A stretch of 64,000 nucleotides of DNA from a virus (IMGVR_UViG_3300043726_000004:1-64000); one strand, 5' to 3'; positions 15,057 through 19,243 are shown, numbered from the stretch's first letter. The notes: a model not told the origin generated them from the letters alone. Numbers and translations: made by a program.

Positions 15057-15087
15057 TTGTTTTTTACCGGGGTCGGTGTTATAAAAT
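15057..15087 (+). promoter_or_regulatory. repeated phage promoter driving the RAMP gene and array
   Basis: TTGTTT-17 nt-TATAAA with extended TG; spacer CCGGGGTCGGTG shared with the promoters at 19244, 28969 and 31283. Confidence 0.75.
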
Positions 15088-15203
15088 TGATTAGATGAAA
15101 CAGAAATGCCGCACACAAGCAGAAGCCGGCTGCGAGCATATGCACGGGCCGAGGACCGCAGGTATGGTACGGCAAATCCTACTGTTCCATCTAAGGAGTC
15201 GGA

Positions 15204-16031
15204 ATGCCGAGAGGCGTTTATGACAGGCACCGTGTCAAGAACACGGATAGCGACGGCACCATGAACGGTGGCGTTGTCACATTGGACGAGGTCGAAGCGA
15301 CAGAGCGCCGACGCCCAGGACGACCGCCAGGAAGTGGCCGCGCACGGGTTGAGGTTGAGGACCGCAATCACGACGACGGCCTCGAGACCTACGACCCCGT
15401 CAGCAACGGTGGTGAGTACTCGGCGAGCACACAGCGACCGTACACCATGATCGTCGAGGTCGAAGGTGTGTCGGCAATGCTTTTTCACGCGTGGAACAAC
15501 GAAGCGGTCGCCGCGAAAGGTGCGGCCGCAAAGGGTTCCGCCGAGAAGAAGACCGACAACGTCGACACCTACGTGTATCGCAACAACACCGGCCAGCTGT
15601 GCATCCCCGGCGAGTACATGCGTATGAGCCTGGTGAACAGCGCGCGATGGATGCAAGACCCACGATCCCCAAGGAAGTCGATGATGGACTTGGCGAAAGC
15701 GGCTCTGATCGTCGCGAACGGTGATGACGGCAACGAGCTCGCACCGATTCTCGTCGGGAACGAGGACAGCGGCTTCAAACCGACGAAGGATTGGGACTAC
15801 ATCGACCGGCGTCGAGTGACAGTACAACGCGCTGGTATCACGCGTCAGCGACCTGCATTCCGCAGTGGCTGGCGGTGTCGCTTCGCCATCACCGTTCTCG
15901 CACCGGAATACATCGACAAGAACCGCCTTCGCGAGCTGCTGGATATCAGCGGTCGCTTGGTAGGTCTCGCAGACTTCCGGCCAACCTACGGACGCTACGT
16001 TGTTGTCCGTCAGGAGCAGCAGGGAGCGTAA
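15204..16031 (+). CDS. stand-alone Cas7/RAMP-superfamily protein (Vipr-like)
   Basis: AAGGAG RBS; RAMP-like order of motifs VEVEGVSAMLFH, LCIPGEYMRMSL, IDRRRVTV...TRQRPAF..W...F.I and a C-terminal G-loop GRLVGLADFRPTYGRY; no other cas genes nearby. Confidence 0.78.
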   Translation: MPRGVYDRHRVKNTDSDGTMNGGVVTLDEVEATERRRPGRPPGSGRARVEVEDRNHDDGLETYDPVSNGGEYSASTQRPYTMIVEVEGVSAMLFHAWNNEAVAAKGAAAKGSAEKKTDNVDTYVYRNNTGQLCIPGEYMRMSLVNSARWMQDPRSPRKSMMDLAKAALIVANGDDGNELAPILVGNEDSGFKPTKDWDYIDRRRVTVQRAGITRQRPAFRSGWRCRFAITVLAPEYIDKNRLRELLDISGRLVGLADFRPTYGRYVVVRQEQQGA

Positions 16032-17410
16032 CCCATCCGGCCAGCTTCGGCAAGCCCCGGTCCTCTAAGTCGGGGTCTGCCAGGGTCGGGAGAGGCTACG
16101 TATGCTGCCGTACGTCACGGTTAGGTCTCATGCGCCAAGGTTCTCAACGGACGGGTCCGGCAAGCATAGCTGGTGCTAGGTGCGTTGGGGTCATGGTTAG
16201 GATGTATCAAGGCTGTGGTGGGCCAGTCTTTGGTTCCATCCGCTTTGGTACGGTTGCCTTCGCAAAGGTTGGCAGTGACAAGGTGCTGTATGGCTAAGCA
16301 TGCATTGGTCCGGATCGTTTCGGACAGCCTTGCTTTGGCAAAGTCCGGTGGGCTGATGCGAGGTACGGTCCGGCACGGATGGGCACCGTAAGGTGAGTGA
16401 GAGGCTTGCCCCGGTCAGTCTTGGTGATATTTGGCTGGGTCGTGTATGGTCCGGCTTGACCGGGAATGACACGGCGGGACACCCTCTGGTGCAGCGCGGT
16501 GCGGCTTTCCTAGGAGCGCCTGGGCTTTGTTAGGTGAGGTACGGAGGAGTGTTCGCAGAGATAACCCACGGTTTGCTCACGTACGCCAAGATTGGCTTGC
16601 GTCTGGCATGATCCGGCAGTCTGTGGTCGTCTGCGGTATGGACGCGCTTTTGCGGGCTGATGCGAGCTACGCAGGGGTTACGCGGGGCAAGCAACGGTTG
16701 CATCTGGGATGGTCGGCTAGGGTACAGTGTGGAGGAGTGCTTGCAAAGACCCGTTCGGGTTCGGTACGATGTGCTTCGGCGACGTGAGTTATGGTCCGGC
16801 TAGCTCAGGCTCAACGGGGTGCCGTCGGGCTCGGATAGCTGGGCAAGGGTGCGGTAAGGAGCCGGAGTGTTGAAATCTGACCTTTTGTGCCGTGCTGCAG
16901 TACGTTGGGGTACGCAGGGGTGGCCTGGGGTAAGCAACGCCGAGGTGCGGATAGGACTGGTCTGGATAGACCGGGGTTCGCCAAGGTATACTTCCGTCGG
17001 GTCAGGATCGCTTTGGTATGCATAGGTTAGATGCCGTTCGGTGTGGTAAGGATCCCTATGCCACGGCTAGGTAGGTCGTGGATGTGTCTGGCTCTGCCGG
17101 CTAAGGTGGGGACAGGTGTAGGCTTGCCTGAGACTTGGTTAGCGAAGGCTTGTCCGGGTACCGAATGGCTTGGTTAGGAGTTCAAAGCCACGGCTGGGTT
17201 GGACATGGAGCTGTCAGGCGTGCGAAGGTGAGGTATGCGCCACTAGGGAGCGGATGGACTGGCCCTGGAGTGGTAAGGAGGAGTGTTGTTCAGGACTGAA
17301 TGTGGCAAGTTGTGGTGCCGTGAGCAGCAGGTGTCGTTGGCCGTGGTGCCGTACGTTGCAGTCTGGTCTCGTCAGGACGGCTGAGCTCATGTCCGGTTTT
17401 GTATGGGTTC

Positions 17411-17485
17411 TGGCAGCAAGGTTGGATGCGGGTTTTTCCTACTCCTTCTCGCGTCCGTGGGGTTCGATTCCCCACGCTGCCACCG
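17411..17485 (+). ncRNA. tRNA-like element 1 (acceptor stem and T-arm, no D-arm) with anti-SD loop
   Basis: TGGCAGC/GCTGCCA stem, GTGGGG-TTCGATT-CCCCAC T-arm, GGATGCGGG/CTCGCGTCC stem closing the loop TTTTTCCTACTCCTT; ends ACCG. Confidence 0.7.
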
Positions 17486-17733
17486 TTGGCCATGGTGTGC
17501 CAACCTTGTGTGGGGTTTGCAGGTGCTAGGCTTGCAACGGTTAGGCGCTGTTGGGTGTGCATGGGTCGCCTCTGGAAGGGTCCCGTACGGTGTGGTCCTC
17601 TAGGATCCCAAGAGGTACGATTGGCAGAGGTCATGTGTGGTGCGGCCCCGCATGGGTAGGCAACGGCTAGCTGCGGAGGGACAAGGTGTGACTGTTGTCG
17701 GTTCCGCTAGGGTTTGGTATGGAGGAGGTTGCA

Positions 17734-17964
17734 TTGGCTGAATGTGAACATGCAGATGCAGTAGCTGTCATGACGCGCACTTATGACGCGAAGAACGACG
17801 ACACAGACATTGACGGCCTTCTGTATCTGGAACGTCATCTACCCGACCACATATGGAAGCATATGGAGACGCAACATGCGGCAACGATCACGTTAGAGAT
17901 ACTCTTCTGCCCTGAATGCAAGGTCGTATTCGGGGACGTTACAGGCGCCACAGGGTTAGTTTAG
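17734..17964 (+). CDS. small putative zinc-binding protein embedded in the pentamer array
   Basis: GGAGGAGG RBS and TTG start; CEH...CPEC; the pentamer periodicity is lost over this stretch. Confidence 0.65.
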   Translation: MAECEHADAVAVMTRTYDAKNDDTDIDGLLYLERHLPDHIWKHMETQHAATITLEILFCPECKVVFGDVTGATGLV

Positions 17965-18558
17965 GGATGGCTAGCCTAGGTAGGATACGGTACGGTTGGG
18001 TTCCCTGGGGTTCGGTTCGGTGAGGATTGCTTCCCGTTGGACGGGTTAGCAAAGGCTCCGCGTGGTGCGGTTGGCAAAGGGTGCGTCCGGCTAGGATGCG
18101 GAAGTGGCTAGGCATAGCTTGCAGGGCTACGGTTCCGTACGGAACGCCAAGGTGTGGAGCGCCTTTATGTGGTCCGGCTTGCGTCAGGTATGCCGCGTTG
18201 TGGCGATACTTGCCCCGGTATGATCCGGCATGATGGCGTCCGGCACGCAAAGGTTAGGTTAGGTGTGGTATGGAGGTCCAGGGTCCCATCTGGACAGGTC
18301 GGCTTTGGCACTTTATGGTCCGGCAGGTTGCGGAACTCTGTGCTGCGGTCTGGTCGCATGCCAGGCGTGATGAGGTCCGTTCCGGCAAGGTCCACTTGGC
18401 TGGGCCGAGGTGTTGTAAGGTTAGGTGTGGACCGGTATGGTGAGGTCCCGTCCGTTCCGGTTGTGTAGCGTAAGCACGGGCGAGGCCCGGCTTGCCTTGG
18501 CATGGTTCGGTAAGGACGGCGCGCACGGGTGTTGGTTTGATCAGGTAAGGTAGGGACA

Positions 18559-18671
18559 TGCACAGGCAGGAAGCGGATGTGGGCGACCGGATTGCCGTGA
18601 ATGCCCTCACTGGTCCGGTTCTTAGGTATAAAGCCACAACGTCTGGGGGTTCAATTCCCTCCTGTGCACCG
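18559..18671 (+). ncRNA. tRNA-like element 2
   Basis: TGCACAG/CTGTGCA stem, GGGGG-TTCAATT-CCCTC T-arm, GGATGT/ACGTCT stem, internal ACCGGA/TCCGGT hairpin; ends ACCG. Confidence 0.65.
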
Positions 18672-19243
18672 ACGTGGTATGGTCGTGCACGCATAGCCTT
18701 GGTGAGGATCGGACCGGTCAGGTCAACTCTGGCGTGCTGAGTTAGCACAGGGCGATGTCAGGTACGCGTAGGTATGTTTTGGTCAGGTAAGGAGTAGGCA
18801 GTGCAGGTCACGGCTGGCGAGGGTCGAGTGCGGTAAGGTGAGGAGGGGTGTGGACTGTTACGGCAAGCCGAGTCGGGGACGGATAAGGTCAAGTTAGGTG
18901 CGTTCCAGTCGGGTAAGGTCGTCCTAGCCATGACGCGGTTGGGTTCTGTTCGGTTCGCTCCGGCATTGTATGGTGTGGCGGCTCAGGACCGGTGTTGCTA
19001 GGCAAGCAACGGTACGGTGGGCTACGCTATAGCATGGTCCGTTCGGGCTCCGTATGGCAAGGCAGAATTGGCCTTGGTTCCCTAAGTTCAGGTATGGTCC
19101 GGCTGCGTTCCGCATGGGTCGGCTAGCTTCGGTATGGTCCGGACGCTGGGATGTGAATGTGAATGGTGGCGGTGTGTCTCGTTCGGCTCCGGGACCCGTG
19201 CTGCTGCTGCACAGCGTCGGCTGGCATAAATTTCTCTTTGCAC

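What the first reader, a model, noticed from the sequence alone, without database searches (positions are those of the whole stretch)
15057..19226. Stand-alone Cas7/RAMP-like gene plus a 3.2-kb GGY-NN pentamer array: candidate CRISPR-less RNA-guided system
Seen: a promoter, a 275-aa protein with RAMP-order motifs ending in the G-loop GLADFRPTYGRY, then non-coding DNA with 5-nt periodicity starting 7 nt after the stop. Three positions are biased to GG(T/C) and two are free; about 31 pentamers stay in phase over 16039-16193, and phase holds again over 16282-16396. There is no cas1/cas2/cas3 and no repeat-spacer array. Established: Cas7-family RAMPs polymerise on guide RNA with a fixed nucleotide footprint. 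Inference: each subunit binds one GGY and displays NN, so the string of NN dinucleotides encodes a gapped target, probably in competing phages or host genes, and is probably repressive because no nuclease is linked. From memory this resembles the recently reported viral VIPR architecture, which I cannot verify here. The GGY positions here are quite degenerate (CGT, GCT, GCC, TGT, GAC).
Basis: partly seen in the sequence, partly recalled or inferred. Interest (0 to 1): 0.96.

Follow-up and report, generated by a model that had tools for sequence, protein, structure and literature searches.

The report
Phage VIPR system with giant guide arrays
This soil phage carries a VIPR system, a CRISPR-like RNA-guided DNA silencer first described in 2026; it is a known kind, but its guide arrays are unusually large (about 4.2 kb) and at least one guide spells a conserved motif of bacterial helicase-nuclease genes.

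Summary
ORF 15204-16031 is a Vipr-family RAMP. A profile of it hits the solved SUSP1 Vipr protein (E 3e-12), the GGY-contacting residues are conserved, and the predicted fold is Cas7/Csm3-like. Directly downstream lies a 3.2-kb array of GGY-NN pentamers with a strong period-5 signal. A second 1.0-kb array lies at 25132-26115. There is no Cas1, Cas2 or CRISPR array.

VIPR was published in three bioRxiv preprints in 2026, and this scan has already noted it in more than 220 other genomes. This is therefore a new member of a known kind.

What is particular to this locus:
- The arrays are the largest among 80 relatives sampled, with about 650 units (roughly 40-70 guides).
- They have no recurrent 3' tail.
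- They contain two tRNA-like elements and a small conserved Cys/His ORF.
- Between related phages the NN letters are conserved (83%) while scaffold positions 2 and 3 drift (69% and 64%).

Read by the 1-nt-skip rule, one 16-unit guide spells UvrD/AddA helicase motif III. That pattern gave at least 120 exact hits in bacterial genomes and none in 2.9 million viral contigs. Six guides spell P-loop motifs (0.075 expected), but their genes were not found. Expression and silencing are untested.

The parts
15057..15095 (+). Promoter-like phage motif (core CCGGGGTCGGTGTTATA) ahead of vipr
   Evidence: Five copies in the window against 0.08 expected. The next copy, at 19254, closes the array unit. The generic sigma-70 scan did not flag it.
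15204..16031 (+). vipr gene: 275-aa Vipr-family RAMP with a roughly 70-aa disordered N-terminal extension carrying an AT-hook-like RRRPGRPPGSGR
   Evidence: PDB 36pp_D SUSP1 Vipr: E 8e-6 with the single sequence, E 3.2e-12 with the profile, over nearly full length. Foldseek top hits are type VII Cas7 and Csm3. H95, R216, D257, F258 and R259 align to SUSP1 H17, R138, D177, W178 and R179.
16036..19142 (+). vrRNA array 1: about 515 GGY-NN units, most of them in 18 in-phase runs of 15-37 units separated by 1-7 nt slips
   Evidence: Homologous arrays follow vipr in L002 and L003.
16646..16720 (+). Guide region that decodes to a P-loop ([DE][DE]TG[Y]GKT...)
   Evidence: The orthologous guide is kept in L002 and L003.
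16889..16963 (+). Guide region that decodes to VATGTGGGKT[DE]A
17412..17484 (+). tRNA-like element 1: acceptor stem, long arm with invariant loop CCTACTCCT, T-arm, and 3' GCCACC
   Evidence: Fold z-score -3.2. Weak mascRNA match of 18 bits. Conserved in L002 and L003 with compensatory T-stem changes. ARAGORN calls no tRNA.
17719..17964 (+). Small conserved ORF (81 aa, C9xH11...C64PEC67) embedded in the array; function unknown
   Evidence: 85% amino-acid identity in L002. Only 4 homologues in 5.8 billion proteins. No Pfam family.
18182..18256 (+). 15-unit guide, conserved in L002 and L003; its reverse complement decodes to Y[FL]VGP[IM]G[IM]GKSTA[IM] (Walker A)
   Evidence: No target was found.
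18559..18670 (+). Second, weaker tRNA-like island (T-arm GGGGGTTCAATTCCCTC with a 7-bp closing stem)
   Evidence: The fold is not better than shuffles (z -0.96).
18897..18976 (+). 16-unit guide whose reverse complement decodes to T[IM][IM]G[DE][DE][DE][HQ]A[IM]YR[FL]RGA, which is UvrD/PcrA/AddA helicase motif III
19240..19275 (+). Next copy of the promoter-like motif, marking the end of the vipr-array unit
25132..26115 (+). vrRNA array 2: about 187 units, including one 464-nt run of 92 units in a single phase. It holds three adjacent P-loop guides at 25303-25377, 25384-25433 and 25438-25512.

Best explanation
This is a VIPR (Viral Interference Programmable Repeat) system of an uncultured soil phage of about 102 kb or more. 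A phage promoter probably transcribes vipr together with the 3.2-kb array; a second 1.0-kb array lies 6 kb downstream. By homology with SUSP1 Vipr, one protomer binds each pentamer. It buries G1, G2 and Y3 using H95/D257, R216/F258 and R259, and exposes the two N bases. In-phase blocks of about 9-16 units then act as guides that pair with double-stranded DNA in an NN-x-NN-x pattern. With no linked nuclease, binding would block transcription. Guides abut directly, either in phase or across 1-7 nt phase slips, without the invariable 3' tail seen in the SUSP1 type. Shown here: protein homology, fold, conserved contact residues, the periodicity, purifying selection on NN, and one guide that spells a 16-codon bacterial helicase motif. 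Inferred: transcription, filament assembly, processing, silencing, and which genomes are the natural targets. My estimate is about 0.9 that it is a VIPR system. I put about 0.4 on at least part of the panel being aimed at cellular (host) genes rather than rival mobile elements.
For: Protein:
- phmmer hits PDB 36pp_D 'SUSP1 Vipr protein' at E 8e-6.
- A profile of 35 homologues hits it at E 3.2e-12, covering chain residues 5-188 of 202.
- The GGY-contact residues named in 10.64898/2026.04.26.720927 align to invariant or near-invariant residues here.
- The AF2 model has pLDDT 77.8, and its top Foldseek hits are Cas7/Csm3 at probability 1.0.

Array:
- The period-5 signal is confirmed.
- 79 of 80 IMG/VR relatives carry period-5 tracts on the vipr strand in the fetched locus, in most of them directly flanking vipr.

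Selection:
- In window-versus-L002 alignments the identities are G1 0.83, G2 0.69, Y3 0.64, N4 0.83 and N5 0.83. The vipr third codon positions are 0.62 identical.
- There are runs of 9-15 identical NN with changed scaffolds, and they also hold three-way with L003.

Code:
- The 11-codon core of the guide at 18897-18976 gave at least 120 exact hits in bacterial genomes, where about 0.07 would be expected.
- Hits match 26-31 of 32 NN over 16 units, and the match ends at the block edge.
- The full 16-codon pattern matches single sites in 2 of 5 genomes, and the backwards control gives 0.
- Hits lie in UvrD-helicase + PD-(D/E)XK proteins of about 1000-1070 aa and in PcrA.
- The same pattern gave 0 hits in viral contigs.

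Other points:
- Six GxGK[ST] decodes against 0.075 in 20,000 shuffles, and 1 in 4204 units in relatives.
- No self-target in the phage genome.
- No Cas1, Cas2 or CRISPR repeats.
Against: - There is no expression evidence: no RNA run holds this DNA.
- Only about half of the units have a clean GG, and position 3 is A in 14-18% of units. Part of the array could therefore bind Vipr poorly.
- No recurrent tail or uniform separator was found, so how guides are delimited or processed is unknown.
- No recognisable vap gene is present.
- Specific targets were found for only one guide. Searches for five others found nothing or only generic P-loops.
- The helicase motif is so conserved that it names neither a host nor a biological purpose.
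- The 1-nt-skip rule has been shown experimentally only for the SUSP1 and P. fulva type.
Confidence: 0.85

Rival explanations
1. It is the same VIPR machinery, but the natural targets are rival phages, satellites or other mobile elements, which is the published role. On this reading the bacterial helicase hits only reflect that mobile-element helicases share the same motif.
For: The published natural targets are satellites and prophages. The P-loop guides had no match within 3 mismatches in five bacterial genomes, nor in 301 Acidobacteriota, as expected for sporadic accessory or mobile genes. P-loop ATPases and SF1 helicases are common in mobile elements.
Against: The motif III guide had 0 exact hits in 2.9 million viral contigs, against at least 120 in species-representative bacterial genomes. 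Other guide cores also had 0 viral hits or only chance-level ones. There was no enrichment over the reversed control in 0.89 Mb of related Vipr phages.
Confidence: 0.35
2. Much of the array is not a working guide panel. It would be decayed or duplicated filler, or a decoy or sponge RNA that titrates Vipr proteins of co-infecting phages, as satellite solo vrRNAs do.
For: Only about 50% of units have GG. No tails or separators were found. Blocks have been replaced wholesale between L002 and the window. Decoy vrRNAs exist in satellites.
Against: In the alignable blocks, NN is conserved well above the neutral level while scaffold positions drift. That is the opposite of what a sponge needing only GGY would show. 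The locus also encodes its own intact Vipr.
Confidence: 0.08
3. The locus is not an RNA-guide locus at all. It would be a periodic DNA element (a structural or packaging signal) or a mis-called coding region.
For: Gene callers place ORFs of up to 328 aa in the homologous arrays.
Against: Period-3 power is low and period-5 power is high across the arrays. The signal is strand-specific. The adjacent protein is a Vipr homologue. Positions 4 and 5 of each unit are conserved and decode to a real protein motif of another gene family.
Confidence: 0.02

Closest known systems
VIPR systems (Vipr + vrRNA), experimental exemplar: type II VIPR of Escherichia phage SUSP1 (bioRxiv 10.64898/2026.04.26.720920, .720927 and 10.64898/2026.10.15.759431)
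   Same: It has a homologous single-RRM RAMP protein with the same GGY-contact residues. GGY-NN pentamer arrays lie next to the gene on the same strand. It is phage-encoded and has no cas genes, CRISPR array or nuclease. One guide fits the 1-nt-skip, codon-register rule, and guide length (16 units) is within the published 9-16.
   Different: About 650 units in two arrays totalling 4.2 kb, against four vrRNAs of roughly 100 nt. No invariable pseudoknot tail. A more degenerate scaffold. No vap1-like neighbour. An N-terminal AT-hook-like extension on Vipr. tRNA-like elements and a small ORF inside the array. The one identified target motif lies in cellular helicase-nuclease genes rather than in a satellite.
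VIPR loci with 'staggered' or ribozyme-interspersed arrays (same paper, legends of figs S18 and S19)
   Same: They are long arrays in which the end of one vrRNA abuts the start of the next, without the SUSP1-type tail. Structured RNA elements punctuate some arrays.
   Different: The figures and tables are not available to me, so the type cannot be assigned. The junctions here are irregular (1, 2, 4, 6 or 7 nt) rather than a uniform 1-nt overlap. No hammerhead match was found. The punctuating elements here are tRNA-like, and the word 'tRNA' does not occur in the main text of the first or third VIPR preprint.
CRISPR-Cas class 1 backbone proteins (Cas7/Csm3, type III and type VII)
   Same: They share the RAMP fold with G-loop and thumb (the best structural matches), and they polymerise on a guide RNA with a fixed footprint.
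   Different: There is no CRISPR repeat-spacer array and no Cas1, Cas2, Cas5, Cas6 or large subunit. The footprint is 5 nt with 2 of 5 bases read, rather than 6 nt with 5 of 6 read.

Membership tests
VIPR | Vipr protein homologous to characterised Vipr proteins | tested here: met
   PDB 36pp_D SUSP1 Vipr: E 8e-6 with the single sequence, E 3.2e-12 with the profile, chain residues 5-188 of 202.
VIPR | Minimal RAMP fold (RRM core, G-loop, thumb) | tested here: met
   AF2 model pLDDT 77.8. The top Foldseek hits are all Cas7/Csm3-type RAMP chains, E from 1.8e-5, probability 1.0. The G-loop GLADFRPTYGR is conserved. The thumb was not inspected separately.
VIPR | Residues that hold G1, G2 and Y3 (SUSP1 H17, R138, D177, W178, R179) | tested here: met
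   They align to H95, R216, D257, F258 and R259. Four are invariant and F258 is at least 90% conserved in 35 homologues; W is replaced by F.
VIPR | Adjacent tandem GGY-NN (YNNGG) repeats with free NN | tested here: met
   Period-5 autocorrelation, HMM runs, and a unit profile with uniform NN. The scaffold is more degenerate than GGY.
VIPR | Invariable structured 3' tail after each repeat tract (SUSP1-type vrRNA) | tested here: not met
   No recurrent k-mer or uniform junction was found. The paper itself describes tail-less and staggered architectures in other types, so this does not exclude membership.
VIPR | vap accessory gene next to vipr | tested here: inconclusive
   Neighbouring ORFs have no informative Pfam or PHROG match apart from a ParB-like protein 4.7 kb downstream. 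The embedded 81-aa Cys/His ORF has only 4 homologues.
VIPR | 1-nt-skip (NN-x) targeting in codon register | tested here: met
   This was tested for one guide. The 16 units at 18897-18976 decode to UvrD motif III. The 11-codon core gave at least 120 exact genomic hits, and the match ends at the guide edge. Other skip rules were not compared.
VIPR | No self-targeting | tested here: met
   The best 12-unit match in the phage's own genome is 19 of 24, the same as the reversed control.
VIPR | Viral location, no cas genes or CRISPR array | tested here: met
   IMG/VR virus record of 101,818 nt. No Cas1 or Cas2 and no CRISPR-like repeats.
VIPR | vrRNA expression, Vipr-vrRNA RNP, DNA binding and silencing | not testable with these tools
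   No RNA run holds this DNA. This needs bench work.
CRISPR-Cas (class 1) | CRISPR repeat-spacer array plus adaptation or effector cas genes | tested here: not met
   Only the RAMP fold is shared.
tRNA (for 17412-17484) | Cloverleaf with D-arm and 7-nt anticodon loop | tested here: not met
   ARAGORN finds none. Rfam gives no tRNA hit, only a weak mascRNA match. The fold shows acceptor stem, T-arm and one long arm with a 15-nt loop.

The most novel reading that the evidence does not exclude
The phage would use a panel of roughly 40-70 VIPR guides not mainly against rival viruses but to silence cellular genes at their least mutable codons. These would include the motif III of UvrD/AddA-type helicase-nucleases (RecBCD-like enzymes that degrade phage DNA) and the P-loops of several other NTPases. 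That would make it an RNA-guided host-takeover or anti-defence system. The conserved tRNA-like elements would serve as RNase P/Z processing signals or as regulators of the phage's AGGAGTAGG ribosome-binding sites.
Probability: 0.3. Interest if true: 0.72.

Novelty: new member of a known kind. Interest (0 to 1): 0.45.

Why it matters
The value of this locus is comparative rather than foundational.

- It gives evolutionary support for the VIPR code that does not depend on the SUSP1 experiments. In three related phages the NN letters are held fixed while the GGY scaffold drifts.
- It shows how far the array can be expanded: 4.2 kb, about 4% of the genome, without tails.
- It offers a concrete, testable guide-target pair in a cellular helicase-nuclease family, plus a statistically clear bias towards P-loop codons. 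If these reflect real targets, phages would be using RNA-guided silencing against host functions.
- The tail-less architecture and the tRNA-like punctuation are also practical leads for building compact multi-guide VIPR arrays.

Tried and rejected
- Pfam gave nothing for the protein, and PHROGs gave only an unnamed family.
- Rfam at gathering score found nothing in the window. At E-value threshold it gave only weak mascRNA and tmRNA-fragment matches, and no hammerhead.
- Megablast against the phage collection found no match.
- Sequencing runs: no RNA holder is listed, so expression could not be examined.
- Exact guide patterns without useful hits:
  - 16212 block, 12 units, viral contigs.
  - Walker A guide at 18182, viral and metagenome contigs.
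  - 25303 guide, 12 codons, viral contigs.
  - The motif III guide written as pentamers, to find other phages carrying it.
- Patterns allowing up to 3 mismatches in five bacterial genomes found nothing for four P-loop guides. The same was true in 301 Acidobacteriota for the 25303 guide.
- Metagenome hits to GPPGSGKTSL[FL] (9 hits) and viral hits to TGTGGGKT[DE] (3 hits) did not extend beyond the searched core. They are generic or chance matches.
- The other guides do not tile the same helicase genes.
- There is no enrichment of matches in 0.89 Mb of related Vipr phages.
- I looked for a recurrent tail, a separator or hairpins, and found none that is uniform.
- The generic promoter/terminator scan was uninformative.
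- The VIPR type (I-VII) could not be assigned, because the paper's supplements are not held.
- The host could not be named. GC content (56%) and the guide matches are compatible with several soil phyla.
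Full report
**1. Observation**

The window is the first 64 kb of a 101,818-nt IMG/VR virus record, estimated 88% complete. 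The DNA is held by soil metagenome runs.

ORF 15204-16031 (275 aa) is followed 5 nt after its stop by DNA with a very strong 5-nt rhythm. In 16032-19226 the GGT autocorrelation is 3.2-4.3x at lags 5-25 and near zero at most other lags, while a coding control is flat.

A phase-tracking HMM finds about 515 units, most of them in 18 in-phase runs of 15-37 units. The unit profile is G 0.79, G 0.63 (C 0.23), then not-G (T 0.58, C 0.26, A 0.14, G 0.02), then two positions with all four bases at 0.21-0.29.

A whole-genome scan finds exactly one more array, at 25132-26115 on the same strand. It contains a single 92-unit in-phase run.

A promoter-like motif precedes vipr and recurs right after the array.

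**2. The protein is a Vipr**

- Pfam is silent.
- phmmer against PDB sequences hits 36pp_D, 'SUSP1 Vipr protein', at E 8e-6. A profile of 35 homologues hits it at E 3.2e-12 over almost its whole length.
- The residues that the cryo-EM paper names as holding G1, G2 and Y3 are H17, R138, D177, W178 and R179 (10.64898/2026.04.26.720927). They align to H95, R216, D257, F258 and R259, which are invariant or nearly so in the family.
- The AlphaFold model (pLDDT 77.8) matches type VII Cas7 and Csm3 best.
- The family is large: 1998 hits in one database, 852 representatives in another, and 383 in IMG/VR.
- No Cas1, Cas2 or CRISPR-like repeats are present.

**3. Known system**

VIPR was described in April 2026 (10.64898/2026.04.26.720920). 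Its features are a lone RAMP, vrRNAs of 9-16 YNNGG repeats, NN read against DNA with one skipped base, transcriptional silencing, and seven types that include staggered and ribozyme-interspersed arrays.

A structure paper and a satellite-competition paper followed. This scan has already noted such loci in at least 222 genomes. The locus is therefore a new member of a known kind.

**4. What is particular here: size**

Among 80 IMG/VR relatives (42-55% identity), 79 have period-5 tracts on the vipr strand. These are typically 200-400 nt immediately upstream of vipr and 200-700 nt downstream. The median total is about 600 nt and the maximum is 2640 nt.

Here the total is about 4.2 kb. Only the two closest relatives found are comparable: L002 (85% identity) has at least 2.5 kb, and L003 (73%) has about 4 kb.

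**5. What is particular here: architecture**

- There is no invariable tail and no uniform separator. Junctions between phases are 1, 2, 4, 6 or 7 nt, mostly GG plus a few bases.
- Two tRNA-like islands interrupt array 1. The first (17412-17484) has an acceptor stem, a T-arm with the canonical T-loop, and a 3' GCCACC.
- That first element is conserved in L002 and L003, with compensatory changes at three T-stem pairs.
- An 81-aa Cys/His ORF (17719-17964) sits inside the array. It is 85% identical in L002 but has only four homologues anywhere.
- Vipr has a roughly 70-aa disordered N-terminal extension with an AT-hook-like motif. The extension is shared only with its closest relatives.

**6. Evolutionary evidence for the code**

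In window-versus-L002 array alignments the identities are 0.83 (G1), 0.69 (G2), 0.64 (Y3), 0.83 (N4) and 0.83 (N5). The third codon positions of vipr are 0.62 identical.

Unit by unit, there are blocks of 9-15 consecutive identical NN whose scaffolds differ in almost every unit. Three blocks hold in all three phages. Between these blocks, whole stretches have been replaced.

So NN carries the selected information, scaffold positions 2-3 are nearly free, and the array turns over by blocks.

**7. Targets**

No self-target exists in the phage genome. Reading NN-x as codons gave the following.

The motif III guide:
- The 16-unit block at 18897-18976, conserved in all three phages, spells T[IM][IM]G[DE][DE][DE][HQ]A[IM]YR[FL]RGA. 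This is helicase motif III of the UvrD/PcrA/AddA family.
It gave none in 2.9 million viral contigs.
- Hits match 26-31 of 32 NN over the 16 units and fall to chance at the block edge, which fixes the guide length.
- The full pattern matches one site each in two of five genomes tested. The backwards control gives none.
- The genes encode proteins of about 1000-1070 aa with UvrD-helicase, UvrD_C and PD-(D/E)XK domains, and a few encode PcrA.

The P-loop guides:
- Six guides decode to GxGK[ST], against 0.075 in shuffles; the maximum in 20,000 shuffles was 3.
- Relatives' arrays show 1 such decode in 4204 units, so the decoding method does not create them.
- The phage itself has only one Walker A ORF and no motif III.
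- The genes behind the P-loop guides were not found.
- Related Vipr phages are not enriched for matches to the window's guides.

**8. Reading**

The mechanism is inferred from SUSP1. The data here add conservation evidence and one guide-target fit.

The target class is open. The cellular helicase-nuclease hit and the absence of viral hits favour a host-directed component. Against that, a motif this conserved cannot name a host, silencing of a host gene during infection is unproven, and a later check weakened a similar claim elsewhere in this scan. I put host targeting at about 0.3-0.4.

**9. Verdict**

The system is already published, so the locus is a new member of a known kind. It has useful comparative features and a testable target hypothesis.

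Noticed in passing
window 17412-17484; also 877, 1614, 3489, 4061, 26374 and G000 99354: The invariant loop CCTACTCCT of the tRNA-like element is the exact complement of AGGAGTAGG. That motif is an extended Shine-Dalgarno-like sequence lying a few bases before start codons of several phage genes (8 copies of the 8-mer on the + strand against 1.7 expected). The element might regulate these mRNAs or act as a processing signal.
   Followed up: partly
window 15067, 19254, 28979 (variants at 21545 and 31293): A phage-specific promoter-like motif with core CCGGGGTCGGTGTTATA recurs ahead of gene blocks (5 matches against 0.08 expected).
   Followed up: partly
window 15204-15410 (Vipr residues 1-70): Vipr has a disordered N-terminal extension with an AT-hook-like RRRPGRPPGSGR. 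It is present only in the closest relatives; most family members are 200-220 aa.
   Followed up: partly
window 17719-17964: A small conserved Cys/His ORF (CxH...CPEC) is embedded in the guide array. It is restricted to this phage clade (4 homologues). Its start region resembles the recurring GGTAAGGAGGAGTG motif of the array.
   Followed up: partly
L138-L217 (IMG/VR relatives): Most relatives carry a short pentamer array upstream of vipr as well as one downstream. The window's phage has none upstream.
   Followed up: partly
window 11221-13662 and 20713-21504: A ribonucleotide reductase gene lies upstream of the locus and a ParB-like nuclease-domain gene lies downstream. No integrase was seen near the locus.
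   Followed up: no
L002 1192-2178, L003 array region: Automatic gene callers place spurious ORFs of up to 328 aa inside these GGY-NN arrays, so protein databases contain false proteins from them.
   Followed up: no
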